From a virus (taxonomy: Duplodnaviria; Heunggongvirae; Uroviricota; Caudoviricetes), in IMG/VR virus record IMGVR_UViG_3300028805_000039, positions 1 to 63,851 of that record: a stretch of DNA of 63,851 nt, one strand, 5' to 3'. The position numbers and the translations under genes were made by a program. Positions 1,880 to 20,368 of the stretch are shown here, in pieces. Each line of letters begins with the position of its first letter. The stretch's first letter is position 1. Under the pieces are notes generated by a model. It ran no database searches and had not been told where the DNA came from. It was given only the letters and a program-made list of their open reading frames with translations.

Positions 1880-1881
1880 AG

Positions 1882-2808: not shown

Positions 2809-2809
2809 C

Positions 2810-3143: not shown

Positions 3144-3172
3144 TTGAAAATATTAAAAAAATATTATATAAT
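3144..3172 (+). promoter_or_regulatory. sigma70-like promoter TTGAAA-N17(A7)-TATAAT
   Basis: Same consensus as 939-967. Confidence 0.6.
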
Positions 3173-3207
3173 ATTTATAGAAAATAAAGAAAAAGGAATT
3201 AATATTT

Positions 3208-3393
3208 ATGGAATGGAATGAAAAAATTAAAGAAGGAATGAAATTAATTGCCGCAGGATGTTTTGAAGAAGGTGGATTTGCCACTTGTCGAATGAGTAAA
3301 TGTCCTTTTGGAGATTATTGTTGGATTATCAAAAGAGAAAAAGAAGAATATGATAATGACTTAATGGAGCCTTTGTATTGGGATGAAATTTAA
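3208..3393 (+). CDS. small Cys-containing hypothetical protein
   Basis: 61-aa ORF downstream of a promoter and RBS. Confidence 0.5.
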   Translation: MEWNEKIKEGMKLIAAGCFEEGGFATCRMSKCPFGDYCWIIKREKEEYDNDLMEPLYWDEI

Positions 3394-3408
3394 AGGAGTT
3401 GATAGAAT

Positions 3409-4578: not shown

Positions 4579-4583
4579 ATTAC

Positions 4584-5243
4584 ATGACTAATTTTGTTAT
4601 GACTCGTTTTGGTGATGTTCTTTTTGGTCTTATTATTATTTTTAGTCTTTATAAATTTGGAATGACAATTTATCATTTAACATCATTTTATAACCATACA
4701 CATGGGCAAGCATATTTTACTAATGTAGGAACTACATTAAATTTTGAAGATCTGCCAAGACTTACTTTTAAACAATTTTTAAGTTTTTATAATATTAATC
4801 CTGAAAAATGGTTTATTATGCAAGGCACAAAATGGAACCATCATCCCACTAGAATTTATCAAAGCAGTGGGCAGCCCATTTGTTTTAAAACTGTTTTTGA
4901 TTATGTAAAATATATTAAATGGATTAAAAAGCAAGCTAAAAACAAAAAAGAAAAAGCCCGTGCTGAAAAACTTCAATCTATTGTTGATGATGTAAAAAAA
5001 GATATTAATAAAATTAATAAAGATTATGAAAATGTCCTTACTGAAAGCACTAAAACTTATTTACAAGTTGCTACTCGCCTTAAAGATGATATGAAATATT
5101 ATGTAGATATTAATGAAGTTAGTAGTATAGATACATCAAAATTATATAAAGGGGAACCTATATGTATCATTAATAGTTTGACTGGTAAAAGAAAATATTA
5201 TATTTGGGATGGAGAAAACTTTATCTTTGTTAAAATTTTTTAA
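4584..5243 (+). CDS. hypothetical protein
   Basis: 219-aa ORF with a hydrophobic N-terminus. Confidence 0.5.
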   Translation: MTNFVMTRFGDVLFGLIIIFSLYKFGMTIYHLTSFYNHTHGQAYFTNVGTTLNFEDLPRLTFKQFLSFYNINPEKWFIMQGTKWNHHPTRIYQSSGQPICFKTVFDYVKYIKWIKKQAKNKKEKARAEKLQSIVDDVKKDINKINKDYENVLTESTKTYLQVATRLKDDMKYYVDINEVSSIDTSKLYKGEPICIINSLTGKRKYYIWDGENFIFVKIF

Positions 5244-5246
5244 AAG

Positions 5247-5276
5247 GAATGGATATTAACCATTCCTTTTTTTAAT
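5247..5276 (+). terminator. rho-independent terminator (GGAATGG...CCATTCC + T7)
   Basis: Hairpin followed by a T-run immediately after the stop. Confidence 0.6.
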
Positions 5277-5291
5277 AAAAAGATTTTTTAT

Positions 5292-5320
5292 TTGAAAATT
5301 TATAAAAAATATTGTATAAT
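5292..5320 (+). promoter_or_regulatory. sigma70-like promoter TTGAAA-N17-TGtTATAAT (extended -10)
   Basis: Consensus match with 17-bp spacing. Confidence 0.6.
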
Positions 5321-5353
5321 ATTTATAGAAAATAAATAAAGGAGTTTTTATTT

Positions 5354-5539
5354 ATGTGGTATGCTTATAAACTTAATGACCAACAGGAATGGGTTAAAAT
5401 GAAAACTTTTGACAAACTTGAAGATTATAAAGCCTATGTTGAAACACATCGAGTAACTAATTCAATGTGCTCGAATAATGAAATTGATTTGCGCGGAAAG
5501 GCTTATAGCGAACGATGGGACAAAGCAGTAATGAATTAA
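5354..5539 (+). CDS. hypothetical protein
   Basis: 61-aa ORF. Confidence 0.5.
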   Translation: MWYAYKLNDQQEWVKMKTFDKLEDYKAYVETHRVTNSMCSNNEIDLRGKAYSERWDKAVMN

Positions 5540-5700
5540 TTCAAATAGAAATTGACCATGTCTTAAATAGCCAAAATGCGAATGAACAATTAAGGATTTT
5601 CTAGAAAGTTTTCCCAAAGCGTGAAATAATTGGAGTATCTATGGTGCCTGCTGATCCAGTAGGTTGGTTTATGACAATAACTTATAAAGTATTATACTAA
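5515..5700 (+). CDS. possible small protein (one TAG codon), GC-richer island
   Basis: The frame is open from 5488 to TAA 5698-5700 if TAG is read as sense. ATG candidates are 5515 or 5641 (the latter has a GGAG RBS). Overlaps the preceding gene. Confidence 0.25.
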
Positions 5701-5713
5701 GGAGTTGATAAAG

Positions 5714-6466
5714 ATGGCAGTTTATGCTTGCGCTGATTTGCATGGTTGTTACTGGGCATGGGAACAGATTAAGAATATTTTACAGCCAAATGATACATTA
5801 TATTTTTTAGGCGACGCAGCAGATAGAGGTCCTGATGGTTGGACTATTATGAAAGAATTATTGAACAATAGTCAAGTAATTTATTTAATTGGTAATCATG
5901 AACGAATGTTTCTTAATAATTGGGGAAGTTATGATGGACATGACCTTGAAAATTATCATCATTTAGATGATCATATTTGGAATTGGTATTGTAATGGTGG
6001 AGAAATTACCGATTCTCAATTTATTCAAGATTCTATCTCTGGCGAAGAAAAGGTTAGTTATATTAGACAATTAAATGACTTACCTTTTATAACAGTTTAT
6101 CATAATGAATTTAATGAAGACGTAGTTCTTTGCCATGCCGGATGTGACTATCATGATATTGATAAATTAACAGAAGAAGCAGCTATTTGGGACAGAACTC
6201 ATTATATATTTAATAAATGGGATGGCCCCAATAATGTTTATATTATTCATGGGCATACTCCTATTCCTCTACTTATCCAAGAGCAAGAAAAGTTTAACAG
6301 ATGGCATAGCCTTGGATATAGTATTCCAAAAGCCGAAGCACTTGAAGGAGCTTATTGGTATGCTGGCGGGCATAAGTGTTGTATTGATTGTGGGGCAGTA
6401 TTTACAGATCAAACAGTATTATTAAATCTTGATACATGGGAAGAAATTATAATTAATAAGGAGTAA
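5714..6466 (+). CDS. calcineurin-like metallophosphoesterase (Ser/Thr phosphatase / ApaH-like)
   Basis: Motifs ADLHG, GDAADRG and GNHE. AGGAG lies 9 nt before ATG 5714. Confidence 0.7.
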   Translation: MAVYACADLHGCYWAWEQIKNILQPNDTLYFLGDAADRGPDGWTIMKELLNNSQVIYLIGNHERMFLNNWGSYDGHDLENYHHLDDHIWNWYCNGGEITDSQFIQDSISGEEKVSYIRQLNDLPFITVYHNEFNEDVVLCHAGCDYHDIDKLTEEAAIWDRTHYIFNKWDGPNNVYIIHGHTPIPLLIQEQEKFNRWHSLGYSIPKAEALEGAYWYAGGHKCCIDCGAVFTDQTVLLNLDTWEEIIINKE

Positions 6467-6471
6467 AAATT

Positions 6472-6657
6472 ATGTGGGATCTTGTTGAAGAAATGTTGAA
6501 AACTATTGCTATTATACTTGGAATTGTACTTCTGTTTTGTTTTCCAGCTATGTGGCTTTGGAATTGGTTAATGCCATATATTTTTAATTTACCAACGTTA
6601 ACATTTGGACAGATGGGTGGCCTTTTGCTTTTAGCTTATTTATTTTTCCATGAATAA
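6472..6657 (+). CDS. small membrane protein
   Basis: 61 aa with two hydrophobic segments. Confidence 0.45.
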   Translation: MWDLVEEMLKTIAIILGIVLLFCFPAMWLWNWLMPYIFNLPTLTFGQMGGLLLLAYLFFHE

Positions 6658-6671
6658 GGAGGAACTATATA

Positions 6672-6941
6672 ATGAAAACTAAAAGAATGGATAGACATAG
6701 TTTTTATTGTATGAATTGTGGAGAAAAAGTTTATGAATTAATGAGACCGGTCAGCCATCAATATGGAAAACATCATCGTAAAGCATTATATTGTCCTTGG
6801 TGCAAGTTAACTGTTAATACGATAGAATGTCGTAATGACAATGAAGTTTATGAGTTTAAAGAAGCCTTCGCCGCCGGAGAATATAAAGAAGAATTAAAAG
6901 AATCTATTGATTTTATTAAAAATAATTATATGGAGTTGTGA
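6672..6941 (+). CDS. zinc-ribbon protein
   Basis: CMNCG...CPWC Cys pairs. Confidence 0.5.
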   Translation: MKTKRMDRHSFYCMNCGEKVYELMRPVSHQYGKHHRKALYCPWCKLTVNTIECRNDNEVYEFKEAFAAGEYKEELKESIDFIKNNYMEL

Positions 6942-6945
6942 TACT

Positions 6946-7431
6946 ATGACTACTTTATACATTATGGTTGGAGCTCCTGGTAGTGGAAAAAGTTATTTTG
7001 CTAAGAAATATCTCTTTGCTGGTAAACCTCATATTGTATATATTTCTCGTGATGAAGTTAGATATTCAATGATTAATGAAAAAGACTCTTATTTTAGTAA
7101 AGAAGATGATGTTTTTGCTGAATTTGTAAGGCGTATTAAATATCATATTGCTATTGGAGCTGATGCGGTCATTGCTGATGCTACTCACTTAAATTGGAAT
7201 AGTCGTCGTAAATTGCTTAATGCTTTAAATATCCTTAATGAAACAAATAATAATTTGGCTATTATTCCAGTTGTATTAAAACCAAATATTAATATTGTTT
7301 TAGAAAGGAATAATACTAGAGAAGGACGAGCCAATGTCCCAGAAGATGTAGTAAAAAGAATGTGGAATAATCAGACTTCTCCTAAAACCGATCCTTTTAA
7401 CTATACTGCAATAATGGAGGTAATTACATGA
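6946..7431 (+). CDS. P-loop kinase (AAA/zeta-toxin-like nucleotide or polynucleotide kinase)
   Basis: Walker A motif GAPGSGKS. ATG 6946 lies inside the longer track ORF 6907-7431. Confidence 0.55.
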   Translation: MTTLYIMVGAPGSGKSYFAKKYLFAGKPHIVYISRDEVRYSMINEKDSYFSKEDDVFAEFVRRIKYHIAIGADAVIADATHLNWNSRRKLLNALNILNETNNNLAIIPVVLKPNINIVLERNNTREGRANVPEDVVKRMWNNQTSPKTDPFNYTAIMEVIT

Positions 7432-7646
7432 TAATTACTACATTACTTTATATTTTTGCTACTATTGGAGTATTAAATACAATTACTGCTATTATTTTTT
7501 TAATCTATTTAATAGTAGATATAAATAACTATAAAGAATGGGAATATATAGAAGGGTATGGATTTAAAAATATTTGGAAAAATGAACGAAATGGAAATGA
7601 AGAGGAAATATCTGGAAGTAATCAAAATAATAGTAGCAAATGCTAA
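7428..7646 (+). CDS. small membrane protein
   Basis: 72 aa with a hydrophobic N-terminus. ATGA start overlaps the upstream stop. Confidence 0.45.
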   Translation: MIITTLLYIFATIGVLNTITAIIFLIYLIVDINNYKEWEYIEGYGFKNIWKNERNGNEEEISGSNQNNSSKC

Positions 7647-7805
7647 ACCAGAATCTTATACATTAAACTAGTTGCGGTGTGTTAATCAAATTTTAATGTA
7701 TGGTGCTAATACAACTCACCTTAAAGGATCTAATAATAGTTTTGGAATGGATGAAGGTTGGAAGGTAGATTATTTTCCAACTTCTTTTGTAAAGGATGAT
7801 AATGA

Positions 7806-8378
7806 ATGAATAAAATTTGGCTTTCTAGCGACTATCATTTCCAGCATGATAGAGAATTTATTTATAAACCAAGAGGATTCAATAGTGTAGATGAAATGAA
7901 TAATACTATTATTACAAATCATAATAATATTGTTGATAATGATGATGATGTATATTTACTTGGTGATTTAATGTTAGGTGGTCCTGATAAAATGGATACA
8001 GGACTTGAAATGATTAGAGCATTAAATGGGCGGCTCCATTTAGTGCGAGGAAATCATGATACTAATAAAAGATGGGAAGTATATGCTACACTTCCTAATG
8101 TAATAGAACAGAAAAATGCTATTTATTTAGATTATCATAAATATCATTTTTATATGAGCCATTATCCTACAATTACTAGCAATCTTGAAAAAGAAAGTCT
8201 TCATCAATGTACTATTAATCTATATGGACATACTCATCAACATAATTCTAATTTTTATATGGATATTCCATATATCTATCATGTTGGGCTTGATTCTCAT
8301 CATAATTGTTTAATTAATTTAGATGATGCTATTTTAGATATGAAACAAAAGGTGCAGGAGTGTTTTGATGAACTTTGA
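7806..8378 (+). CDS. metallophosphoesterase (YfcE/MPP family)
   Basis: Motifs SDYHF, GDLMLGG, GNHD and GHTH. Confidence 0.7.
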   Translation: MNKIWLSSDYHFQHDREFIYKPRGFNSVDEMNNTIITNHNNIVDNDDDVYLLGDLMLGGPDKMDTGLEMIRALNGRLHLVRGNHDTNKRWEVYATLPNVIEQKNAIYLDYHKYHFYMSHYPTITSNLEKESLHQCTINLYGHTHQHNSNFYMDIPYIYHVGLDSHHNCLINLDDAILDMKQKVQECFDEL

Positions 8379-8715
8379 AAAATTTTTTGATTTAATGCGG
8401 GAATCACGTTGTGGCCTTTGTGCTGAAAAAGATAAAGGTTGTAAAGGGTTTGATATTGCTGGTAAATGTAAAGATTTTAAATTAAAGCCTTTTTCAGATA
8501 GAATGAATATATACTATAAAGCTTGTTTTTGTTGTGAAAATTATTTTAATTGTGATGAAAAAGATAATGACAGTTTCAAATGCCATAATTATAAAAAATA
8601 TATCCCTAGATGTGATAAATGTGTTTTTACAAAAGGTATTTGTGGTTATCATGACACGCATGGAGAGTGTATTTCTTATAAACGTGATCCCCCTGATGGT
8701 GGATACTATGGATAA
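8365..8715 (+). CDS. Cys-rich hypothetical protein
   Basis: 116 aa with about 20 Cys residues. Confidence 0.5.
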   Translation: MMNFEKFFDLMRESRCGLCAEKDKGCKGFDIAGKCKDFKLKPFSDRMNIYYKACFCCENYFNCDEKDNDSFKCHNYKKYIPRCDKCVFTKGICGYHDTHGECISYKRDPPDGGYYG

Positions 8716-8878
8716 AAACGGACGCTGAGGCGAAAGTCTCGGCGTCTTCGTGCTATATCAAACGCCCCGTACTGCCAAAAAAATCGCGTTAGGAAATTTT
8801 TTCCAGAAATGTCTATCTCCATTAATTTTATTATTTTAACTTTCATATTTTTATGAAAGAAAGGAGAGAAAAGACGCA

Positions 8879-9076
8879 ATGATTTTACATTATACTATCT
8901 TATGGTTTGTTATGATGATTGCTGGTATATTAATGTATGAGCAACCATTAATTACTAAGGTAAAAGGAAAAATGCTTAAAGCTTTATAGCAAATAGGATG
9001 GATGATTATGTTTATTGCTATGCTAGGTTTTATGCATGGCGTATTAAGTCTTATTAAACTTATCCCTCCATTATAA
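8879..9076 (+). CDS. small membrane protein (one TAG=Gln codon)
   Basis: ATG 8879 after a GGAGAG RBS. The product MILHYTILWFVMMIAGILMYEQPLITKVKGKMLKAL-Q-QIGWMIMFIAMLGF... ends at TAA 9074-9076. Confidence 0.45.
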
Positions 9077-9082
9077 AAGAAA

Positions 9083-9115
9083 AAAGTCAATGGATTATTC
9101 CATTGACTTTTTTCT
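9083..9115 (+). terminator. rho-independent terminator (AGTCAATGG...CCATTGACT + T-run)
   Basis: Perfect 9-bp stem followed by TTTTTTCTTTTTTT. Confidence 0.65.
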
Positions 9116-9137
9116 TTTTTTATTATATAATAATCAT
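9102..9137 (+). promoter_or_regulatory. sigma70-like promoter TTGACT-N17-TATAAT embedded in the terminator tail
   Basis: The descending terminator arm supplies the -35 element. Same cassette design as at 27399-27454 and 43990-44038. Confidence 0.5.
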
Positions 9138-9164: not shown

Positions 9165-9590
9165 ATGATTATTGAAGATTGGAATAATGATTTAGGAATG
9201 GCTCAATGTATCATTGAAGATACTTCAACTAATGGGGTAACATTACGAGGATATGGAAAAGCAACTTGTCATGATGATGATAAATAGTGGAAAAGTGAGT
9301 TTACTGGAAAATATATCGCAATGACTCGTGCTCAAATTGATATTCTTCGTAAAAAACGTGATTATGAAATCAAACCAAGTATTATGGCATTAGAGCATGT
9401 TTTATCTACAATGAAACAAAGCAAGAAATATAACCCAAAATCTTATGAAGCAATACGTATTAAAAAAGAATTAAAACATTATCAAGAAGATTTACATATG
9501 ATACAAACTATCATTATTGATGAACAAGAAAATTTAAGACTTTATTTGGCCGGAAAAGACCAATTACATCATTAGGACGAAAATAAATAA
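9165..9590 (+). CDS. hypothetical protein (two TAG codons)
   Basis: AAGGAG RBS before the ATG. The frame runs from 9165 through track ORF 9321-9575 and ends at TAA 9588-9590. Confidence 0.5.
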
Positions 9591-9630
9591 AATAATTTAA
9601 AGAAATTGTATAAAATACATAAGAGAGGAA

Positions 9631-9879
9631 GTGGTTTTTATTCTCAAATATGTATTTTTAGGAATAAGTCTATATGTTCTAATCATTCCAATTTTAGAAT
9701 CATTATCTGCCTTAATTTGCCAAGGTATCGAAGTCCTTAAAGGAAAACTTGTTTATTAGCAAGCAATACTCCAATAGCAAGTTGATGAAATTAGAGCTAG
9801 ACCATCCTCAGGTTCTACTCATGCAATAGGTTTTACGATACCGGCAGAAAGTGAATATTATGAGGAGGAAGAAGAATGA
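9631..9879 (+). CDS. possible small membrane/acidic protein (GTG start, two TAG codons)
   Basis: An open frame whose TGA overlaps the ATG of the PhoH-like gene (ATGA coupling). The start codon is uncertain. Confidence 0.3.
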
Positions 9880-11102
9880 AATTTTATGATACTAGTTCCT
9901 TATTATTAAAAGCTGGAACGCTTTTTGATGAAAACGAAGAAAAATTCGCTATTTCGTCTATAACATTAAAAGAACTTGAAGAAATAAAAACTTCTTTTAA
10001 TAAAGATGCTAATATCAAATACGCTGCTCGTTAGCTGCTTCATCTTTTAGATGAACATGATGGAGAATATGAAATTAGTATTTATAAAGAATCAATGTTA
10101 CAAAAAATTATTGAAAATGATTTACCAATTACTAATGATATGAAAATATTGGCGTCAGCATTAAATTATGACATTTTTGTTACTAATGATTTAGCTTTAA
10201 AAAAAATAGCTCAAATCTTTTTTGATTCCAATAAAATTGAAAGTGTCGGAGAAGATTTTGATAATAATTATACAGGCTATCTTGAAGTTGTAATGGATAA
10301 CTCATAGATGGAAGATTTTTATTCTAACTTAAATAAAAATACTTTAAAAGCATTAATTAACCAATATATTATTATTAAAGACATAAATGGAACTATTGTA
10401 GATAAACGGGTATGGACTGGCGAAACATATAGAAATATTAGTTTTGAAAACTTTAATTCTAACGAATTAGGTCCTATTCGTCCTATGCCCGGAGATGCTT
10501 AGTAGTAGTTTGTGGCAGATAGTTTATGCCACAATAAGATAACGGTTATACGTGGCCCAGCTGGGTCTGGTAAATCACAATTATCTCTTGGCTGTTTATT
10601 CTGGCTATTAGAAAGACGTAAAATTGAGAAAATTATTATCTTTTGTAATACAGTTGCCGCAAAAGGGGCTGCTAGGCTAGGATTTTTACCTGGTACAAGA
10701 GAAGAAAAGTTATTGGATAGCCAGATAGGAAATTTCTTAATAAGTAAATTAGGAGATAGAATAGAAGTAGAAAGATTAATTGATGATAATAAATTATTGT
10801 TATTACCAATGGCAGATATTCGTGGTTATGATACAACGAGTATGAATGCAGGAATATATATAACAGAAGCTTAGAATTTAGATCGAGATTTAATGAAATT
10901 AGCACTTCAACGCATAGGAGAAGATTGTATCTGTATCATTGATGGAGATGAAAAAACTTAGGTAGATGATGTAGCTTTTGCTGGGGCAAACAATGGTATG
11001 CGTAGAATGTCAAAAGTATTTCGTGGACATGATGTTTATGGAGAAATTGAATTAAAGAAAATCTATCGTTCTAAAATAGCTGAAATTGCTGAAAATATTT
11101 AA
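9876..11102 (+). CDS. phoH: PIN domain - PhoH-like ATPase fusion (YlaK-like), six in-frame TAG codons
   Basis: Walker A GPAGSGKS, GFLPGTREEK, and motifs IYITEA-Q-N (PhoH DEAQN) and KT-Q-VD (PhoH TQID) where TAG sits exactly at conserved Gln positions. The N-terminus matches a PIN domain (ITLKELEEIK...ARQLLHLLDE). Confidence 0.8.
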
Positions 11103-11103
11103 G

Positions 11104-11132
11104 AGACTGATTTTTATCAGTCTCTTTTTTTA
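11104..11132 (+). terminator. rho-independent terminator (AGAGACTGA...TCAGTCTCT + T7)
   Basis: Perfect hairpin directly after TAA 11100-11102. Confidence 0.7.
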
Positions 11133-11156
11133 TAAGTCAAGAAAGGAGGAAAACAT

Positions 11157-11657
11157 ATGACAGTACAAGAACAATTATGGCAATATTTTATTAACAAAGG
11201 TTTTACTCCACAATCTATTGCTGGCATTATGGGTAATGTAGATGAAGAAAGTAAATTTTAGCCAAATGCTGTATAGAAAAATAATTTATATACAAATGCT
11301 TCATATACTAATATGGTAGATACTGGTATATATAGTAATTTTATTCATGATGATTTAGGATATGGTTTAGTTCAATGGACTTATGATGCTTTTAAACAAG
11401 ATTTATATAATAGATGTAAATCAGCAAATAAATCAATTGCTGATTTAAATTGTCAACTTGATTAGATGTATGCTCATTTATAGAGTGAAGGACTATTAAA
11501 TCAAATGAAAACTTTTACTTCTATAAAAGAAGCGACTATTTTTTATATGTTGAGATTTGAAAAACCATAGGATTAGAGTGATGATGCTCAAAACAAAAGA
11601 ATTGAAGCAGCTCAAAAATGGTTTAATATATTTAATAAAAATAAATAGTAGCAATAG
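11157..11657 (+). CDS. phage tail-lysozyme-like (PF18013-like) cell wall hydrolase domain protein
   Basis: AAAGGAGG RBS. Contains FTPQSIAGIMGNVDEES and GYGLVQWTY motifs and six internal TAG codons. The frame ends in TAG TAG CAA TAG and runs without TAA/TGA into the amidase gene, so the boundary is uncertain. Confidence 0.5.
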
Positions 11658-11669
11658 GGAGGTAAAAAA

Positions 11670-13604
11670 ATGAAATATTCTCAATCAAATCCTCCATTAG
11701 TATGTATGATGACAAATTCTACTTGTTATCAATCAACAAACTAGATGCAAGTTAAAGGAGTCCTCTGGCATAGTACTGGGGCAAATAATAAAACAATAAA
11801 AAGATATGTTCAACCAACTGAAGGTGATCCAAATTATGCTTACTTAATGAATTTAATTGGTAAAAATACTGGCGCAAATGATTGGAATCATATTTCCATG
11901 TAGGCTGGTTTAAATGCTTGGATAGGAACACTAGCTGATGGATCTGTTACTTCTGTTCAAACAATGCCTTGGGATTATAAGCCTTGGGGATGCGGTTCAG
12001 GTAGTAAAGGCAGCTGTAATAATGGTTGGATTCAATTTGAAATTTGTGAAGATAGTCTTGTTGATGGGACATATTTTTATAAAGTCTATCAAGAAGCATG
12101 TGAATTAACCGCTTATTTATGTAAATTATACAATATAAATCCTCTTGGAAATGTTCTTTTTAATGGCACAACTGTACCAACAATTTTATGCCATCAAGAC
12201 AGTTACCAATTAGGATTAGGAACAAATCATAGTGATGTATACCATTGGTTCAATAAATATGGCAAAACTATGGATAATGTTCGTAAAGATGTAGCAAATT
12301 TATTAGGAATTAATATTAATACTAATTCTCCAATTAACGATAATGTTTCCGTTATGATGTTAAAACGAGGAATGAAAGATAATCCTCAAATTAATTTATT
12401 ACAAGAAAAATTAATTGAACTTGGATATAATGTAGGACCAAAAGGAGCAGATGGAAACTTCGGCCAGGCTACTGAATTAGCAATTAAAACTTTTCAATAG
12501 AAAAATGGATTAACTCCTAATGGAGTATTTGGCGCAGAAACATTTTTAGCTATGAAAAAAGCATTAGAAATGAAAAATTCTATAGTAGCTCCATTAATCA
12601 ATAAAGAAGAAATTTATAGAGTCCGTAAAGCATGGAATCAACCAGGCACACAAGTTGGAGCCTATAAAAATTTAAACAATGCAAAAGAAACAGTTGATAA
12701 ATTACCTGCTGGATATCATGTATATGATAACAATGGTTCAGAAATTTACCCAATAGTTTCTTCTGCTATTACAAATAATAAAACTTCTAATAGTAGTGTT
12801 GCCGTAAATCTTCCAATAGCAAAAACTTACTCTGGTGTAAAACTAGCATCTTCTTCAAAAGATGAGAATGGTAGATATACTGGTGGATAGCGTGGGGACC
12901 AAACTGGAAGGGAAGTATATATTTTAGATTGGTATCGTAGTGGTTGGAATTATGTATTAAGACCAAAAACTCAAAGATTAGCTGAAAATATTGCTCGTGC
13001 TGCTGAGGCAGGGTGTGCTAATGACAATATCGGTTATAGTCAAGGGGCAAGAAATACATTATATATAGAAGCTCAAAAAGTAGGATTAGATTTATCAAAA
13101 ATAACAACTCCTTGTGATTGTGATTGTAGCTCATTTGTCAGTATTTGCTGTATTTGTGCTGGTTTATCTCCAAGTATTTTTTATGCTGATGGAAATATGA
13201 GAACTACTTATAATATGAAATAGGCATGTGAAGCAACCGGATAGTTTTTAGTATTATCCGGCAATCAATACATTGGTCAAAAAGATTATTTAAAACGTGG
13301 AGATATTTTACTTAATTCTAATTCTCATGTAACTATTGTCCTTTCCAATGGAGATTGTGTAGAAGATTTAACAAGTTAGTTTGAAACTTCAACAACTCAA
13401 CCTATTATTAGTGGAACTAGTTATACTGTTCAAATTACAGTACCATTTTTAAATATTCGATTAAATCCTAATCCTGATGGAAAAATAGTTGGACAAGTTA
13501 AATATAATCAAATATTTACTATCGTCCAAGAGGAAGGAGGATATGGTAAACTTAAATCTGGTGTTGGCTGGATAGATTTAAGATATACCAGAAAATTATC
13601 ATGA
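11670..13604 (+). CDS. multidomain endolysin: N-acetylmuramoyl-L-alanine amidase (Amidase_2/PGRP) + PG_binding_1 + hydrolase domain + SH3-like
   Basis: GGGAGG RBS with 7-nt spacing to ATG 11670. PG_binding_1 motif LGYNVGPKGADGNFGQATELAIKTFQ-Q-KNGLTPNGVFG with TAG at the conserved Gln. The C-terminus has an SH3-like fold. Eight in-frame TAG codons; ends at TGA 13602-13604. Confidence 0.75.
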
Positions 13605-13915
13605 AAGGAAAACATAATAAAAAATTAGAATTTTCAAAAACATTATTAATCCAAGAGTCAATATTAATTTGGATTCATACTATTTCAATGCTAGTCCTAG
13701 CTTATATTTGTGTTTTTCGTGGTTATTTTGCGGAATTACCTTGGCTTACCGCTATGGTAGCTTTGCCATGGGGAGCTTACGCAGTTAGCCAACGAGCATA
13801 TTATAAGAAATCAGAAGCTGAAAATACCGAAGGCGGTATTAAGTTTGAAACAGTAATGTCTGATTATAGAGAATAGACTGACCCTTATCTTTTTAATGAC
13901 TCTGCTGTTGGATAA
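13601..13915 (+). CDS. holin-like small membrane protein
   Basis: Starts at ATGA overlapping the endolysin stop. Two TM helices, one TAG codon, stop TAA 13913-13915. Confidence 0.45.
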
Positions 13916-13920: not shown

Positions 13921-13966
13921 ATTGAAAAACCAAGATAATATAATTTTTTTATATTATCTTGGTTTA
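13921..13966 (+). terminator. rho-independent terminator (AAAACCAAGATAATAT...ATATTATCTTGGTTT)
   Basis: Long perfect inverted repeat followed by a T-rich tract. Confidence 0.65.
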
Positions 13967-13975
13967 TTTTTATAT

Positions 13976-14004
13976 TGACAATTATATTTTTTTATTATAT
14001 AATA
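13976..14004 (+). promoter_or_regulatory. sigma70-like promoter TTGACA-N16/17-TATAAT
   Basis: Consensus hexamers upstream of the RNase H gene. Confidence 0.55.
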
Positions 14005-14091: not shown

Positions 14092-14538
14092 ATGAGAATA
14101 TACTATACAGATGGTTCTGCCACAGGAAATGGTACTGAAAATTCTATTGGCGGTTTTGGAATCGTTGAAGTAGATGAAAATGATAATATCCTTTGGGAAT
14201 ACCAAGAAAATAATTTAAAATATGAAACAAATAATTCTATGGAATTAACTGCTATTTTGTATGCTTTAAATCATATAGAAGTTGAAGAAGCCTCTTTTAT
14301 GAAACCAATTATTTATAGTGATAGTGCTTATTGTGTAAATCTTATAAATGATTGGATGTATAGTTGGGAACGAAATGGGTGGAAACGTCCTAAAAATCAA
14401 GAGGTTAAAAATTTAAATCTTATTAAACAAATTTTTGAATTAGCTGATTTAGCAGAAATAAGAAAAATAAAAGGACATGCTAGCAATAAGTGGAATGAAT
14501 ATGCAGATAAATTAGCAACAGGAGTATATAAAATATAA
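14092..14538 (+). CDS. rnhA: ribonuclease H (RNase HI)
   Basis: YTDGS, TNNSMEL, YSDSAY and KIKGHASNKWNEYADKLA catalytic motifs. Confidence 0.8.
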   Translation: MRIYYTDGSATGNGTENSIGGFGIVEVDENDNILWEYQENNLKYETNNSMELTAILYALNHIEVEEASFMKPIIYSDSAYCVNLINDWMYSWERNGWKRPKNQEVKNLNLIKQIFELADLAEIRKIKGHASNKWNEYADKLATGVYKI

Positions 14539-14822
14539 TGAAAATTAATTTTTTACCAGTAAATATTTATATTAGTCGTAATGAAAGATTTTTTGCTAAA
14601 ATACAATGGTTTTTATATAAAAATTTTGATATGAAAAGAACTGTTCCTTGTGGGCAAACTAAAAAAAATAAATATTTATGGTGTGCCCAGCCAACTGATG
14701 AAGAACATTGCTATTATAGTAAAGAAGATAGAACAGAAGTTAGATGTAAATGTTGTAATCAATTAAAAATAATGAGCAATCAACCTATTGATTTAAAAAA
14801 AATTCATGAAGAAGGCTTTTAA
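14538..14822 (+). CDS. Cys-rich zinc-finger protein
   Basis: 94 aa with multiple CxxC motifs. Start overlaps the rnhA stop. Confidence 0.5.
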   Translation: MKINFLPVNIYISRNERFFAKIQWFLYKNFDMKRTVPCGQTKKNKYLWCAQPTDEEHCYYSKEDRTEVRCKCCNQLKIMSNQPIDLKKIHEEGF

Positions 14823-14823
14823 C

Positions 14824-14852
14824 TTGACTTTAATTAAAAAATATGATATAAT
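14824..14852 (+). promoter_or_regulatory. sigma70-like promoter TTGACT-N17-TATAAT
   Basis: Consensus match. Confidence 0.55.
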
Positions 14853-14885
14853 ATAGTATAAAAAAATTAAAATAGGAGAAATCTT

Positions 14886-15218
14886 ATGTTGAATGAATTA
14901 TTAAGACGATGTTGGACATGTCCAGTATGTGGGCGGATTCTATATCGTCCTTTAAAAGGTTATTGGTGTCCATTTTGTGGGCATAATTTATCTGCTGATG
15001 AATAGGAAGATAATTTAGATTTATCAACAAGAATTACTGCTCGTGATGAAAATGGAGTACCATATTATTGTGGAGAAAGAGGACTTAGACAAAGAACATA
15101 TGCTCATGATATGGACGTAAATATTATCGCAGAAATATTAGAAAAACTTTGTCAATATGAAGAAATTGAAGTTGAAAATGATAGAATAATTGATGAATTA
15201 ATAAATTAGGAGGATTAA
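14886..15218 (+). CDS. zinc-ribbon protein (two TAG codons)
   Basis: CWTCPVCG...CPFCGH motifs. Ends at TAA 15216-15218; the next gene starts at GTG 15219 with an AGGAGG RBS. Confidence 0.5.
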
Positions 15219-15941
15219 GTGAATAAAATAATAAATAATCTTCAACTTAAATATTATATTCATGATCCAAATAATATATTAAGTGAAGAAGAAATATTAA
15301 AATTTAAAAAAATATTTTTAAATAAAGATTTTAAAACTTTTACCGAATTACGAGAAAGTGAAAAATATGAGAAATGCGCTGGATTAGATAAAGACGATAA
15401 AAATGTCTATCACCTTTATCAAATTATGCCTTGGTTTGGTTATTTATATTATGAAGATAAATGTATTGGTAATATTGATTTAACTTCTGAGGATGGATTC
15501 AATCTTATTACTCATGTTTATTTGCATGCTCGTGAGCAAGTATATGAATTATTTACAAATGATAATATTAATCTTAATTGTGATATATAGTATGTGATTC
15601 ACAATTATAATGATCATATTGAAACAAAAGATTTAATTAAAGGCGTTGTTGCAATTAGAGATAAAGATTTTAATGCTTATCTTGAATTAATAAGTAAATA
15701 TCCAAATGTTTATGGTTATACAAAAGATGATTATGCATATATGGTAGAATATTTTCCTGATCATGCAAATATTTTATACAATAATAAATGTATTGGAGAA
15801 TTATTTATTGTCTCAGAAGAAAAAGATAAAGATGGCAATTATCATTTAATTAATAATAATGGTATGAATTTTATTACTTCATATAAAATAGATAATAGTG
15901 ATTATTGGTCAGATAAGGAAATTGTAAGATGGGAAATATAA
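15219..15941 (+). CDS. hypothetical protein with an internal tandem domain duplication (one TAG at the junction)
   Basis: The two halves share YxxYxxxNKCIG(N/E)(I/L) motifs. Track ORFs 15219-15590 and 15594-15941 are in frame and separated only by a TAG. Confidence 0.5.
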
Positions 15942-17842
15942 AAGATAAAACTTTATATACAGAAGAATCAATTGAATCATTATCTCCGCTTGAATTTACT
16001 CGTTTAAGACCAGGAGTATACGCAGGTGATACGACATATGCTACACAATTGGCTGTCGAAATTTTTTCTAATGCTGTTGATGAATTTCGTCTTGGACATG
16101 GAGATAAGATTGATGTAGATATTAAAGGGCCAAGAGTAAGAATACGAGATTATGGGCAAGGTTTTATTCCTAATAGTTTTCGTGATGATGGAAAAACAAT
16201 TCTTGAAGCAGCATTTAGTGTTTTAAATACTTCTGGTAAGTATCGTGAAGATGGTACTTATGAAGGTACTTCATTGGGTTCTTTTGGTATTGGTTCTAAA
16301 ATTACTACTTATCTTTCACATTGGTTAGAAGTATATACTTATAGAGATGGAGAATCAGAATTTTGTTCTTTCACAGAAGGCGTCTTTAATGAACGTAAAT
16401 CAGCTAAAGTAGATAGTTCTGTGCATGGAACTGATGTAACATGGGAACCTAGTGAAGAATTTTTTACACATCCAGAAGTAAATGTAAATGAATTAAAAAC
16501 TTTATTTAAGACAATAGCGGCTTTATGTCCTGGATTAACTATTAATTTAGATGATAATGGTAGTAAAACAACTTATTTCTCTAAAAACGGTATTAGTGAT
16601 TTAGTTGATGAAGCAGTTGAAGGAAAAGAATTAATTAAAAATCGTTTTGTTATGAATTATCAAAATGATAAAAATAAAATTGATATGGTTATGACATATA
16701 CATCTAACTATTCAATGAATTTAATTCCTTATGTTAATACAGGTTTAACAGCAAATGGACCACATATTTCACAGATTAAATCTCTTTTAACTCGTGAATT
16801 TAATAAATTTTTCCGTGATAAAAAATGGTTAAAGGAAAAAGAAGAAAATCTTTCTGGTGAAGATATACAAGAAGGACTTTATATTGTATTTAATATTACC
16901 GCTCCAAATGTAGCATATGATGCTCAGGTAAAGACAAGAGTCACTAAATTAGAAATGATTCCTTTCACTTCGGCAATCGCAGAAGAACTTCGTATCTGGT
17001 TCACAGCAAATGAAAAAGATATTAAAATGATTGCTGATAAAGCGTTAGGGGCAAGAAAAGCAAGATTAGCCGCACAAAAAGCAAGAGATAATGCTCGTGA
17101 AGGCCAAAAGAAAAAGGAAAAAGCTTTAAAATTTGATAGTAAATTAGCTGATTGTTATAGTAAAGATCGCAAAAAGTGCGAAATTTATATTACAGAGGGC
17201 GATAGTGCGAGTGGTAAATTAAAAGAAGCCAGAGACAATGAATTTCAAGCAATTATGCCAGTCCGAGGCAAAATTTTAAATACTCAAAAAGCAACCATTG
17301 ATAAAATACAGAAAAATGCTGAAATTATGTCAATGATTCAAGCTTTTGGTCTTGAAATTGATTTAAAAACAATGAAAGTGACATATCATCCAGATAAAAT
17401 TCGATATGGGAAAATTATTATTATGAGTGATGCTGATGTTGATGGTGCTCATATTAAAAATTTGTTTTATACTTTTATTTGGAATTTCTGCCCTCAATTA
17501 ATTCAAGATGGTTATATCTATGCTGGTGTCCCGCCACTTTATAAAGTTACAATGGCTAAAAAATATTATTATTTAAAGAATGATAATGCTTTAGAAGAAT
17601 TTCGTAAGAAAAATGCTGGTAAGAATTACATTGTAAATCGTATGAAAGGTTTGGGCGAAATGGATGCTGAAGAAGTTGAAGAAACTTTAATTAGCCCAGA
17701 AGGTAGAATTATTCGTCAAGTTACTGTAAATGATATTCCAACTACTAATAAATTATTTGATGATTTAATGGGCACAGCTGTAGTTCCACGTAAATTGTAT
17801 ATTAAAGAACATAGTAAAGAGGCTACTTATAATGCAGAATAA
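15929..17842 (+). CDS. type II DNA topoisomerase, ATPase/TOPRIM subunit (GyrB / T4 gp39-like)
   Basis: GHKL ATPase N-terminus, TOPRIM motifs (EGDSASG, IMSDADVDGAHI). No TAG codons. Confidence 0.8.
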   Translation: MGNIKDKTLYTEESIESLSPLEFTRLRPGVYAGDTTYATQLAVEIFSNAVDEFRLGHGDKIDVDIKGPRVRIRDYGQGFIPNSFRDDGKTILEAAFSVLNTSGKYREDGTYEGTSLGSFGIGSKITTYLSHWLEVYTYRDGESEFCSFTEGVFNERKSAKVDSSVHGTDVTWEPSEEFFTHPEVNVNELKTLFKTIAALCPGLTINLDDNGSKTTYFSKNGISDLVDEAVEGKELIKNRFVMNYQNDKNKIDMVMTYTSNYSMNLIPYVNTGLTANGPHISQIKSLLTREFNKFFRDKKWLKEKEENLSGEDIQEGLYIVFNITAPNVAYDAQVKTRVTKLEMIPFTSAIAEELRIWFTANEKDIKMIADKALGARKARLAAQKARDNAREGQKKKEKALKFDSKLADCYSKDRKKCEIYITEGDSASGKLKEARDNEFQAIMPVRGKILNTQKATIDKIQKNAEIMSMIQAFGLEIDLKTMKVTYHPDKIRYGKIIIMSDADVDGAHIKNLFYTFIWNFCPQLIQDGYIYAGVPPLYKVTMAKKYYYLKNDNALEEFRKKNAGKNYIVNRMKGLGEMDAEEVEETLISPEGRIIRQVTVNDIPTTNKLFDDLMGTAVVPRKLYIKEHSKEATYNAE

Positions 17843-18011
17843 TAATCCTTATGAATATGCTGAATTAAGAGAAGAAATTCATTATATTTTGAATGATTTT
17901 TTTAAATATGAATATGAACTTTTTAAAAATGGTGAATTTGATCATGAATTTTTAGAAGTATCTACAGATAATATTTTAAGATTAATTAGACGTCAAGGAG
18001 GACAAGTATAA
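17832..18011 (+). CDS. small hypothetical protein
   Basis: 59 aa. ATG overlaps the gyrB-like stop and its own stop overlaps the next ATG. Confidence 0.4.
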   Translation: MQNNNPYEYAELREEIHYILNDFFKYEYELFKNGEFDHEFLEVSTDNILRLIRRQGGQV

Positions 18012-20368
18012 TGATAAGTGATATACAATTTAATGATTTAACTCAAGAATTAGGTGTAAATTTTATTGAATATGCAGTTGCTGTTAATACTGATCGTGCT
18101 ATCCCTGACGCTAAAAGTGGTTTAAAACCAGTAGCAAGAAGAATCATTTATGATGCTTATGTAACTGGTTGTACTAATAATAAACCGCATGTAAAATGTG
18201 CGGCAATTGTTGGAGATACGATGGGCCGTTTCCATCCTCATGGCGACAGCTCAATTTATGGAGCTTTAATTAGGATGTCTCAACCATGGTCTTTACGTTA
18301 TCCATTAATAGATTTTCATGGTAATAATGGTAGCAGAGATGGCGATCCTCCAGCCCACTATCGTTATACAGAAGCAAGATTAGCAAAAATAACAGAAGAT
18401 GGCATGCTTGGTGGAATGAAAAAAAAGGTAGTTGATTTTATTCCTAACTATTCAGAATCAGAAGACGAACCAGCTACTTTACCATCCATTTTCCCAAATT
18501 TACTTTGTAATCCAAATACTGGTATTGGAGTAGCTATTGCTTGCAACTGGGCCCCGCATAATTTAAATGAAGTAGCACAAGCTATTAATGATTATATAGA
18601 TGGAAAAGAGCCAATGTTGCCTGGACCGGATTTTCCAACTGGTGGAATAATAATTAATAAAGATGATGTTCCTAATATTATGAGGACTGGCCGTGGCAGT
18701 GTAAAAGTCCGTGGAAAATATCATATGGAAGATAATAATATTATTTTTACAGAAGTGCCATATGGTGTTATTACAGAGCCTTTACTTGAATCTATTGGTG
18801 AATTATGTGATAGCGGAGAGATTCAAGGTATTACAAATATTCGTAATGAAAGTAATAGAAAAAAAGGTTATAGATTAGTTTTTGAATGTGCGAAAGATGC
18901 TAATATTTCTAAAATTATAATGTTACTTTTCCAAAAAACTGATTTACAATCTTCATTTTCTTATAATCAAGTCGCTTTAATAGATAAGACTCCTGTAGAA
19001 TTAAATCTTAAAGATTGTTGTAAGATTTATGTTGAGCATAATACAGAATGCATCCGTAAAGAATTAACATTTGATCTCCAGAAAGCGAAAGATAGATTAA
19101 ATATTGTAAATGGTCTATTAAAGGCATTAGAAGATATTGATAATATTATTACTTTAATCAAAGCATCTGAAAGTAGTGCTAAAGCTCGTGAAAAATTAAT
19201 TGAGAAATATAACTTTAATGAAGAACAAGCTAAAGCAATTACTGATATGAAACTTGGTAAATTAGCTGGATTAGAAAGAATAGAAATTGAGAATGAGCAA
19301 GTTGAATTAAAGGACACCATTGAGAAACTTAATGTTATTCTTAATGATTTAATTGGTGAGTTAAAAAGAAGATTATCTGATATTGTTAAAAAGTATGGTG
19401 ATTCTCGTCGTACTGAGTTAACTCAAATTAATGAATCTAAGAGTAAGGAAGAAAAAGAAATTGCTCTCATTCCACCAGAAAAATGTGTTGTTGTAATGAC
19501 TGAAAGTGGTAGCTTAAAGCGTATTCCAGCAACTTCATTTAAGGCACAACGTAGAGGCGGAAAAGGCGTTAAAACACAAGAAGATATAACATCTGCGGTT
19601 ATTCGTACTAATACAGTTGATAGTTTAATGATTTTTTCTAACAAAGGTAAAATGTACCGTTTAGTAGTAAATAATATTCCAGAAGGAACTAATACTTCAA
19701 AAGGAACTCCGGCAAGGGCTTTAGTTGAAATGGAAACTGGTGAAGATGTTGCTACTATTTATTCTATTTATCGTGATACAGATGCTAAATATGTTTTATT
19801 TGTCACTAAAAATGGTCTTGTTAAAAAGACAGCACTAAGTGAGTATGTTGGGACTAAAAAATCTAAAGGCATTGGTGCTATAAATATCAAAGAAGGCGAT
19901 GAATTAGCAGTGGTTACACTGGTTAAAGATGAACCTCTTCTTATTGTCAGCAAAAATGGTTATGTAATTAGATTTAATAGTGCTGAAATCAGTGCTACTG
20001 GTAGACTTACTGCTGGAGTTAAGGGTATCAATCTTGGAGAAGATGATTATGTAGTCGCTGCTTTGCCAATTCGTCATACTGAAGATGATTTAGCTGTATT
20101 TTCTAGTAAAGGCTATGGTAAAAAAGTTAAGTTAAATGATATCCCAACTCAAAAACGTGGCGGCAAAGGTATAATTATTTATAAGCCAAATGATATTTAT
20201 GGTAATGCTAGTTGTGGTCAATTGATTAGTGATGAAGATATGGTATTATTAATTGGCAATAAAAATTCTGTATGTCTGTCAGCAAAAGATATTCCAGAAA
20301 TGGGGAGAACGGCTTATGGAAATATAATGTTAAAAAATAACTTTATTTTAGATGTGAGTAAAGTATAA
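18011..20368 (+). CDS. type II DNA topoisomerase, DNA-cleavage subunit (GyrA / T4 gp52-like)
   Basis: 785 aa with GyrA-like N-terminal winged-helix region and catalytic Tyr context. No TAG codons. Confidence 0.8.
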   Translation: MISDIQFNDLTQELGVNFIEYAVAVNTDRAIPDAKSGLKPVARRIIYDAYVTGCTNNKPHVKCAAIVGDTMGRFHPHGDSSIYGALIRMSQPWSLRYPLIDFHGNNGSRDGDPPAHYRYTEARLAKITEDGMLGGMKKKVVDFIPNYSESEDEPATLPSIFPNLLCNPNTGIGVAIACNWAPHNLNEVAQAINDYIDGKEPMLPGPDFPTGGIIINKDDVPNIMRTGRGSVKVRGKYHMEDNNIIFTEVPYGVITEPLLESIGELCDSGEIQGITNIRNESNRKKGYRLVFECAKDANISKIIMLLFQKTDLQSSFSYNQVALIDKTPVELNLKDCCKIYVEHNTECIRKELTFDLQKAKDRLNIVNGLLKALEDIDNIITLIKASESSAKAREKLIEKYNFNEEQAKAITDMKLGKLAGLERIEIENEQVELKDTIEKLNVILNDLIGELKRRLSDIVKKYGDSRRTELTQINESKSKEEKEIALIPPEKCVVVMTESGSLKRIPATSFKAQRRGGKGVKTQEDITSAVIRTNTVDSLMIFSNKGKMYRLVVNNIPEGTNTSKGTPARALVEMETGEDVATIYSIYRDTDAKYVLFVTKNGLVKKTALSEYVGTKKSKGIGAINIKEGDELAVVTLVKDEPLLIVSKNGYVIRFNSAEISATGRLTAGVKGINLGEDDYVVAALPIRHTEDDLAVFSSKGYGKKVKLNDIPTQKRGGKGIIIYKPNDIYGNASCGQLISDEDMVLLIGNKNSVCLSAKDIPEMGRTAYGNIMLKNNFILDVSKV

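What the first reader, a model, noticed from the sequence alone, without database searches (positions are those of the whole stretch)
9876..13604. Tandem TAG codons at domain or gene junctions: TAG TAG TAG between the PIN and PhoH domains, and TAG TAG CAA TAG between the lysozyme and amidase genes
At 10500-10508 three consecutive TAGs separate the PIN domain from the PhoH ATPase core. At 11646-11657 three TAGs in four codons lie between the lysozyme-domain ORF and the GGGAGG RBS + ATG (11670) of the amidase, with no TAA/TGA. So the lysozyme and amidase are in one uninterrupted frame. If suppression is efficient, the products are fusion proteins (PIN-QQQ-PhoH; a lysozyme-QQQQ-amidase-PGBD-SH3 endolysin of about 815 aa). 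If suppression is partial, tandem TAGs would act as leaky terminators and give both short and fused isoforms, tunable by suppressor tRNA level during infection.
Basis: seen in the sequence. Interest (0 to 1): 0.65.

Follow-up and report, generated by a model that had tools for sequence, protein, structure and literature searches.

The report
TAG runs are ordinary glutamine codons
The two runs of TAG codons are real, but this phage reads TAG as glutamine and both runs lie inside single genes that relatives using the standard code also keep as single genes, so they are not special leaky stops at gene or domain junctions.

Summary
TAG TAG TAG lies at 10500-10508, and TAG TAG CAA TAG lies at 11646-11657. 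Each is in one frame free of TAA and TGA. The window is a 29% GC phage fragment that reads TAG as Gln (code 15), which is a known phenomenon.

- **PhoH run.** It is not in a linker. It lies inside the PhoH domain. The middle TAG aligns with a Gln that is invariant in 23 relatives and in PDB 3b85. The closest relative has TAG CAG ATG at this place.
- **Lysin run.** It lies in the variable linker of an 815-aa multidomain endolysin. In 16 related lineages, 10 of them free of TAG, the lysozyme and amidase domains form one uninterrupted ORF. The fusion is therefore ancestral.
- **GGGAGG + ATG.** It is conserved inside those fused ORFs and has the strongest Shine-Dalgarno pairing of any internal ATG. 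This marks a candidate internal start of the known Type I kind, as in Ply2638A. That start, not the TAGs, could give two isoforms.
- **Statistics.** Adjacent TAG-TAG pairs occur at the expected rate (4 seen, 3-4 expected). Triple clusters are nominally enriched (2 seen, about 0.2 expected). None occurs among 562 TAGs in relatives.
- **Isoform argument.** Six TAGs lie upstream of the lysin run and two upstream of the PhoH run, so the runs cannot define isoforms.

The finding is ordinary and of low interest.

The parts
9876..11102 (+). Single gene for a 408-aa PIN-PhoH (PhoH2-type) protein. It has 7 in-frame TAG (Gln) codons, at codons 53, 144, 209, 210, 211, 333 and 362.
   Evidence: Pfam finds PIN_4 at 5-112 and PhoH at 207-403. 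PHROG 2765 matches residues 4-407 as one stretch. Twenty-three IMG/VR relatives carry it as one ORF.
10500..10508 (+). TAG TAG TAG, encoding Gln209-Gln210-Gln211 at the N-terminal edge of the PhoH ATPase domain. Gln210 lies 17 residues upstream of the Walker A motif GPAGSGKS.
   Evidence: Relatives read Y-Q-x at this place, and the middle Q is invariant. PDB 3b85 aligns its Q to the middle TAG. The closest relative has TAG CAG ATG.
11101..11126 (+). Intrinsic-terminator-like hairpin with a T run, between the PhoH gene and the lysin gene.
   Evidence: One search reports 11 pairs followed by TTTTTAT.
11157..13604 (+). Single gene for an 815-aa multidomain endolysin with 16 in-frame TAGs. Domains: Phage_lysozyme2, Amidase_2, PG_binding_1, ELLD and SH3_3.
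   Evidence: Pfam. Relatives carry the lysozyme2 and amidase domains in one uninterrupted ORF.
11646..11657 (+). TAG TAG CAA TAG, encoding Gln164-167 in the variable linker between the two catalytic domains.
   Evidence: Linker alignment. Relatives read x-[Q/E/K/T]-G-G-x-x-(K)-M-K-Y at this place. The closest relative L038 has q-T-K-q-G-G.
11657..11672 (+). GGGAGG (11657-11662), a 7-nt spacer, then in-frame ATG (11670, codon 172). This is a candidate Type I internal translation start site that would give a 644-aa amidase-PGBD-ELLD-SH3 short isoform.
   Evidence: The anti-SD duplex energy is -12.1 kcal/mol, as strong as at the gene's own start (-11.9). It is the best of the ORF's 20 internal in-frame ATGs. 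The motif is conserved in 15 of 17 fused lineages, even where the peptide changes. In the window, GGAGG-N4-10-ATG occurs mostly at gene starts.
13601..13915 (+). Gene for a 104-aa product with hydrophobic stretches. Its ATG overlaps the lysin stop (ATGA). It is a possible holin, but this is unverified.
   Evidence: The sequence is. It has no PHROG match. A terminator-like hairpin lies at 13927-13965.

Best explanation
The window belongs to a low-GC phage that decodes TAG as glutamine (genetic code 15). Both TAG runs are ordinary Gln codons inside single genes.

**PhoH run.** 10500-10508 encodes QQQ at the start of the PhoH ATPase domain of a PIN-PhoH protein. The middle residue is an invariant Gln 17 residues upstream of Walker A. 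The first arose from the usual Tyr (TAT to TAG). The third occupies a variable position.

**Lysin run.** 11646-11657 encodes QQQQ in the variable linker of an 815-aa endolysin. Its lysozyme-amidase fusion is ancestral and is shared with relatives that use the standard code.

**How the runs arose (inferred).** They came from point substitutions (CAG/CAA to TAG, TAT to TAG) in a genome where TAG makes up about 28% of Gln codons. They have no junction-specific role.

**The GGGAGG + ATG (inferred).** This motif after the lysin run is a conserved in-frame internal start of the Type I kind. It probably produces a short amidase-containing isoform alongside the full-length enzyme, whether or not TAGs are present.
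For: **Code.** Reading TAG as sense restores long ORFs. TAGs align with invariant Gln at PhoH 210, 333 and 362 and at lysin 140 and 249. No gene ends in TAG.

**PhoH.** All 23 relatives carry one PIN-PhoH ORF with Y-Q-x at the site. PDB 3b85 shows the same Q.

**Lysin.** In 16 related lineages the two domains share one frame with no stop between them. Ten of these lineages have no TAG. Pfam confirms Phage_lysozyme2 plus Amidase_2 in seven ORFs translated with table 11.

**Runs not conserved.** The closest relative has TAG CAG ATG and TAG ACA AAA TAG. No triple cluster occurs among 562 TAGs of relatives.

**Adjacency.** Adjacent TAG pairs occur at the expected rate.

**Internal start.**
- The junction ATG has anti-SD pairing of -10.6 to -13.4 kcal/mol.
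- It is the strongest internal ATG in 15 of the 16 fused lineages that keep the SD-like motif and ATG. The other internal ATGs average -0.0 to -3.7 kcal/mol.
- The SD is kept in the L002 group although the peptide changes from GG to KEE.
- Type I internal starts between two catalytic domains are documented for Ply2638A and are predicted to be common (PMC12203907, PMC9430671).
Against: - Clusters of at least 3 TAG in 4 codons are nominally enriched: 2 seen against 0.16-0.25 expected, P about 0.01-0.02.
- No suppressor tRNA lies in the window or in the loci held. The decoding agent is therefore not shown.
- Several TAGs align with invariant non-Gln residues. These are Tyr209 in PhoH and Glu40, Phe103, Ala138 and Lys196 in the lysin. 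No other single amino acid fits better.
- The internal start is inferred from sequence only. GGA GGN also encodes a flexible Gly-Gly linker. Two fused lineages (L050, L073) lack the motif.
Confidence: 0.85

Rival explanations
1. The tandem TAGs are selected leaky terminators at junctions. The level of suppressor tRNA sets the ratio of short products (PIN alone, lysozyme alone) to fused products.
For: Triple clusters are nominally enriched in the window. The lysin run sits at a linker, directly upstream of an SD + ATG.
Against: - The runs are absent from the closest relative and from all other recoded relatives.
- The PhoH run lies inside the ATPase domain and includes an invariant Gln.
- No start or SD follows the PhoH run.
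- Six TAGs in the lysin and two in PhoH lie upstream of the runs, so partial suppression would truncate earlier.
- Relatives using the standard code have the same fusions with no stop at all.
- No gene in the window uses TAG as a terminator.
Confidence: 0.04
2. The runs are an extra-stringent form of the known timer, in which in-frame TAGs keep late and lysis genes silent until suppression begins. Three TAGs in a row would make expression depend steeply on suppressor concentration.
For: Recoded stops in lysis genes have been proposed to control lysis timing (Borges et al., bioRxiv 10.1101/2021.08.26.457843). TAG-free blocks carrying gyrase and ligase genes flank the two genes, and a perfect sigma-70-type promoter precedes one block.
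Against: - One TAG already blocks translation when there is no suppressor. Each gene has earlier TAGs, at codon 35 in the lysin and codon 53 in PhoH, so a run adds little (inference).
- The lysin's share of TAG among Gln codons is 16 of 53. That is not above the window-wide share of 208 of 742 by much.
- The runs are not conserved.
Confidence: 0.08
3. TAG is a true stop here (standard code). PIN, PhoH, lysozyme and amidase would then be separate short genes or pseudogene fragments.
For: Under table 11 the ORFs break at every TAG. No suppressor tRNA was found in the window.
Against: - TAGs fall at invariant Gln positions within domain cores.
- Most fragments would lack starts.
- Coverage by ORFs of at least 100 codons rises from 0.67 to 1.06 of the window length when TAG is read as sense.
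- Recoded relatives show the same pattern.
Confidence: 0.01
4. This rival concerns the internal start only. The GGAGG + ATG in the linker would be a fossil of an old gene fusion, or merely a Gly-Gly-x-x-Met peptide, and would not be used for initiation.
For: Standalone amidase genes in relatives start with the same MKY and have an SD upstream, so a fusion origin is likely. GGA GGN encodes Gly-Gly. L050 and L073 have lost the motif.
Against: The SD is retained at full strength across 15 of 17 fused lineages. These share only 35-43% identity in the lysozyme domain. The L002 group keeps AAGGAGGAA although the peptide is K-E-E.
Confidence: 0.3

Closest known systems
Phages recoded to genetic code 15, TAG to Gln (crAss-like, Lak, phAss and others; Borges et al. 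bioRxiv 10.1101/2021.08.26.457843; PMC9523058; PMC10607447)
   Same: The GC content is low. In-frame TAGs occur in lysis, structural and some replication genes. There are TAG-free blocks. TAGs align with conserved Gln. TAG is not used as a terminator.
   Different: The lineage is not a close relative of any GenBank phage. No suppressor tRNA lies in the part of the genome held. It has two runs of three TAGs, which relatives lack.
PhoH2 / PIN-PhoH fusion proteins (PHROG 2765; PhoH ATPase structure PDB 3b85)
   Same: An N-terminal PIN domain and a C-terminal PhoH P-loop ATPase lie in one polypeptide. Walker A is GPAGSGKS. The motifs Q...Walker A, EAQN and TQVD are conserved.
   Different: Three of the conserved Gln residues are encoded by TAG. 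The usual Tyr before the conserved Gln is replaced by a TAG-encoded Gln.
Endolysins with a Type I internal translation start site between two catalytic domains (Ply2638A; Pinto et al. 2022; PMC12203907, PMC9430671)
   Same: There are two or more catalytic domains plus wall-binding domains in one ORF. A strong in-frame SD + ATG sits in the linker before an Amidase_2 domain. The motif is conserved across homologs.
   Different: The N-terminal domain is Phage_lysozyme2 rather than M23. The protein is much larger and has an additional ELLD domain. The isoforms have not been observed. The ORF is written in code 15.
Programmed stop-codon readthrough and tandem-stop leaky termination
   Same: Stop-type codons lie between two functional modules in one frame.
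   Different: The codons are reassigned throughout the genome rather than read through locally. Relatives have no conserved stop at the position. Many other TAGs lie upstream and downstream in the same ORFs.

Membership tests
Code-15 (TAG to Gln) recoded phage | Conserved genes are broken by in-frame TAG and restored when TAG is read as sense. | tested here: met
   ORF coverage rises from 0.67 to 1.06 of the window length.
Code-15 (TAG to Gln) recoded phage | TAG positions align with conserved Gln in standard-code homologs. | tested here: met
   This holds at PhoH 210, 333 and 362 and at lysin 140 and 249. TAGs in NrdD fall at variable positions and are uninformative.
Code-15 (TAG to Gln) recoded phage | A suppressor tRNA with anticodon CTA is encoded by the phage. 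| tested here: inconclusive
   There are no tRNAs in the 63.9-kb window or in 43 related loci, apart from one tRNA-Thr. The window is only part of the genome, and some recoded phages lack such a gene (PMC10607447).
Code-15 (TAG to Gln) recoded phage | TAG is not used as a gene terminator. | tested here: met
   All of about 70 called genes end in TAA or TGA. TAG-free genes have no TAG before their stop.
PhoH2 (PIN-PhoH) | A PIN domain and a PhoH ATPase with Walker A lie in one polypeptide. | tested here: met
   Pfam finds PIN_4 and PhoH. PHROG 2765 matches the full length. GPAGSGKS is present.
Endolysin with a Type I internal start site | Two catalytic domains and a wall-binding domain lie in one ORF. 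| tested here: met
   Phage_lysozyme2, Amidase_2, ELLD, PG_binding_1 and SH3_3 are all found.
Endolysin with a Type I internal start site | An in-frame start codon with its own RBS lies between the catalytic domains and is conserved among homologs. | tested here: met
   GGGAGG-N7-ATG ends at 11670 and has a duplex energy of -12.1 kcal/mol. It is the strongest internal ATG in 15 of the 16 lineages that keep the motif.
Endolysin with a Type I internal start site | Two polypeptides are produced from the one gene. | not testable with these tools
   This needs a western blot, N-terminal sequencing or initiation-site profiling.
Programmed readthrough / leaky tandem terminator | Related genomes have a stop at the end of a complete upstream product, conserved at that position. 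| tested here: not met
   Relatives have sense codons there, and ten lineages have no TAG in the ORF. The closest relative lacks the runs. Earlier TAGs lie in the same ORFs.

The most novel reading that the evidence does not exclude
In this lineage, and in its closest relative L038, TAG codons directly abut the conserved internal SD (TAG GGA GG). Early in the late phase, when suppression is incomplete, ribosomes that terminate at these TAGs could reinitiate at the ATG 12-24 nt downstream. The ratio of full-length to short endolysin would then follow suppressor tRNA level. That would couple the change of code to the composition of the lysin.
Probability: 0.04. Interest if true: 0.55.

Novelty: new member of a known kind. 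Interest (0 to 1): 0.15.

Why it matters
The practical value is in annotation. In code-15 phages, a run of TAGs followed by an RBS and ATG can look like a gene boundary, and comparison with standard-code relatives shows here that it is not. The work also adds a family of large lysozyme2-amidase endolysins with a conserved candidate internal start. That may interest endolysin engineers. It does not reveal a new regulatory mechanism.

Tried and rejected
- **tRNA and RNA families.** The tRNA and Rfam scans of the window found nothing. The tRNA scan of 43 related loci found only one tRNA-Thr.
- **GenBank phages.** A blastn of 9600-13900 gave only weak PhoH and endolysin matches of 66-84% identity over at most 7% of the query. 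No close relative is deposited.
- **Reaching outside the window to look for a suppressor tRNA.** An exact-protein look-up gave only 2-kb contigs. An exact 42-mer from the window start is absent from IMG/VR.
- **NrdD against PDB, with X at the TAG positions.** This was meant as an independent check of TAG = Gln. The TAGs fall at variable positions (I/V, M/Q, K/T, S/A, E), so it is uninformative.
- **PHROG search of the small downstream membrane protein and the two small upstream genes.** No useful match was found.
- **First permutation script.** It timed out and was rerun in a lighter form.
- **TAG as Tyr.** This was considered because Tyr is usual at PhoH 209. It was rejected because five invariant positions are Gln, and the non-Gln invariants (Y, E, F, A, K) disagree with each other.
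- **The third TAG-TAG pair.** It lies at 51020 on the minus strand. Whether it marks a domain end was checked. It falls at about profile position 270 of 325 of the YcaO model, which is inside the domain.
Full report
**1. The observation**

The sequence shows TAG TAG TAG at 10500-10508 and TAG TAG CAA TAG at 11646-11657. GGGAGG follows at 11657-11662 and ATG at 11670. With TAA and TGA as the only stops, 9876-11102 is one frame of 408 codons holding 7 TAGs. Likewise 11157-13604 is one frame of 815 codons holding 16 TAGs.

- PhoH protein: PIN_4 at 5-112 and PhoH at 207-403.
- Lysin: Phage_lysozyme2 at 3-159, Amidase_2 at 196-347, PG_binding_1 at 409-466, ELLD at 564-733 and SH3_3 at 765-808.

**2. 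Context: a phage that reads TAG as Gln**

The window is 29% GC.
- Reading TAG as sense raises coverage by ORFs of at least 100 codons from 0.67 to 1.06 of the window length. Reading TGA as sense does not give a comparable gain.
- The called genes hold 208 TAG, 476 CAA and 58 CAG codons.
- Genes in about 1-9000 and 14092-22673 are almost free of TAG. The second block includes gyrB, gyrA and an NAD-dependent ligase.
- The lysin, PhoH, tail-fibre-like genes, DnaB-like and NrdD genes and others carry many TAGs.
- No gene ends in TAG.

This is the pattern described for recoded gut phages, where in-frame stops in late and lysis genes are proposed to time expression (Borges et al., bioRxiv 10.1101/2021.08.26.457843; PMC10607447; PMC9523058). 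None of the passages searched in the Borges preprint mentions tandem or consecutive recoded stops.

No tRNA or Rfam family lies in the window. The suppressor is therefore not shown.

**3. The PhoH run**

A scan of IMG/VR gave 36 related loci.
- In all 23 full-length loci read, PIN-PhoH is one ORF, and most of these have no TAG.
- At the site of the run the relatives read Y-Q-x (YQK, YQV, YQQ, YQA, YQM, YQL). The middle Gln is invariant.
- The closest relative (L081, 82% identity) has TAG CAG ATG there.
- The solved PhoH structure 3b85 aligns its GQK to the run. It also aligns EAQN and TQVD to the TAGs at codons 333 and 362.

So the run lies inside the ATPase domain. The Pfam match starts at residue 207, and the Gln sits 17 residues upstream of Walker A (GPAGSGKS). 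The run arose by substitutions such as TAT to TAG and CAG to TAG, and it must be read as Gln for the protein to keep its conserved motif. No SD or start follows it, so a separate PhoH product is not possible.

**4. The lysin run**

A scan with the amidase domain gave 80 loci.
- In 58 of them a lysozyme2 domain is present. Where it lies upstream, it is always in the amidase frame with no TAA or TGA between the two.
- Sixteen distinct fused lineages were examined. Ten of them have no TAG in the whole ORF, meaning they use the standard code: L001, L017, L018, L028/L030, L032, L040, L043/L044, L060, L076 and L079.
- Seven of these ORFs translate cleanly with table 11 and contain both Pfam domains. 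Some carry an extra M15 or CHAP domain.

The fusion is therefore ancestral. The TAG run occupies a linker of variable length and sequence, whose common form is x-[Q/E/K/T]-G-G-x-x-(K)-M-K-Y-S. The closest relative L038 reads F-q-T-K-q-G-G-S-N-G-K-M, with two separated TAGs. Other recoded relatives (the L002 group, L047/L048 and L074) have no TAG next to the linker's GG.

**5. What the RBS + ATG is**

- In relatives where the amidase begins the gene, an SD precedes the same MKY start.
- In 15 of 17 fused lineages the SD-like motif and the ATG persist inside the ORF. This includes the L002 group, where the peptide is K-E-E (aag gag gaa) rather than G-G. The signal is therefore kept at the nucleotide level.
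- Duplex energies with the anti-SD are -10.6 to -13.4 kcal/mol at the junction ATG in 15 lineages. That equals or exceeds the value at the gene starts.
- The junction ATG is the strongest internal in-frame ATG in 15 of the 16 lineages that keep the motif. The other internal ATGs average -0.0 to -3.7 kcal/mol.
- In the window, 15 sites match GGAGG-N4-10-ATG, and most are gene starts. The lysin site is one of two that lie in frame inside a gene.

This fits the documented Type I internal translation start site, which lies between two catalytic domains and gives a short amidase-plus-binding-domain isoform. It is shown experimentally for Ply2638A and predicted for about half of the endolysins analysed in phages of Gram-positive hosts (PMC12203907, PMC9430671). 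Its use in this phage is inferred, not shown.

**6. Is the clustering more than chance?**

- Adjacent TAG-TAG pairs number 4. The expectation is 4.0 if Gln codon labels are shuffled within genes, and 3.1 if TAGs are placed at random.
- Clusters of at least 3 TAG in 4 codons number 2, against 0.25 or 0.16 expected. The nominal P is about 0.02 or 0.01, and the test was made after the clusters had been noticed.
- In deduplicated recoded ORFs of relatives there are 562 TAGs, 13 adjacent pairs and no triple cluster.
- The only other TAG-TAG pair in the window (51020, minus strand) lies inside a YcaO domain.

**7. Why the leaky-terminator model fails**

- The lysin has six TAGs before the run (codons 35, 40, 103, 109, 138, 140) and seven after it. 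PhoH has two before and two after.
- If each TAG were read through with probability p, truncation would occur at every TAG. A discrete product ending at the run would form only after p^6 or p^2 survival. Efficient suppression is therefore required anyway (inference).
- Without a suppressor, the first TAG already stops translation, so a run adds nothing to a timer.
- The runs are not conserved, and the same junctions carry no stop in standard-code relatives.

**8. Layout of the region**

Terminator-like hairpins lie at 9075-9118, 11101-11126 and 13927-13965. A promoter-like site lies at 9103-9131. A perfect TTGACA-17-TATAAT lies at 13975-14003, ahead of the TAG-free block. A 104-aa product with hydrophobic stretches overlaps the lysin stop. 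It is a possible holin but has no family match.

**9. Verdict**

The feature is an ordinary consequence of code 15 in a new, uncultured lineage. The one point of modest interest is the conserved candidate internal start in a family of large lysozyme2-amidase endolysins.

Noticed in passing
window 48225-52025 (both strands): Three genes lie side by side in a phage, all carrying in-frame TAGs. They are a radical SAM enzyme (48225-49472, +), a 247-aa protein with a very Cys-rich C-terminus (49480-50223, +) and a YcaO cyclodehydratase-like protein (50250-52025, -). The set resembles a cluster for peptide modification (RiPP-like).
   Followed up: partly
window 23327-24478 (+): A 383-aa protein has a long coiled-coil-like N-terminus and a C-terminal GIY-YIG nuclease domain. 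It carries 13 TAGs out of 28 Gln codons, one of the highest TAG shares in the window. Borges et al. report preferential recoding of a homing endonuclease.
   Followed up: partly
window 9165-9590 and 14886-15218 (+): Each of these genes has a TAG only 4 or 2 codons before its TAA stop (...LHHqDENK*, ...LINqED*). These may be former TAG terminators that became short readthrough extensions after recoding.
   Followed up: no
window 13975-14003 (+), with hairpins at 9075-9118, 11101-11126 and 13927-13965: A perfect sigma-70 consensus promoter (TTGACA-17-TATAAT) follows a terminator directly and precedes the TAG-free block that holds gyrB, gyrA and the ligase. No comparable promoter lies in the 30 nt between the terminator at 11126 and the lysin start.
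   Followed up: partly
loci L039, L052, L055-L057, L065, L067, L070, L078 (about 4680-5180); L040, L043, L076, L079: In some relatives the lysozyme2 domain lies downstream of the amidase rather than upstream. In others the fused lysin carries an extra Peptidase_M15 or CHAP domain. This points to extensive domain shuffling around a conserved amidase module that begins MKY.
   Followed up: partly
window 44273-45511 (+) and 3409-4578 (+): The phage encodes a xanthine/uracil permease family transporter (412 aa) and an adenylosuccinate synthetase-like protein. Both look like auxiliary genes of nucleotide metabolism.
   Followed up: partly
window 52127-55252 (-): A 1041-aa ORF, judged tail-fibre-like by eye only (no family search was run on it), has 27 TAGs, more than its 23 CAA codons. 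It shows loose TAG groups at codons 86/88/93/95, 351/353 and 935/939/942.
   Followed up: no
L117, L118: The TAG-free protein 1882-2763 occurs with the exact same sequence on short contigs from SRR9006654 and from JGI metagenome 3300028888. This phage or a near-identical one is therefore present in at least those samples.
   Followed up: no
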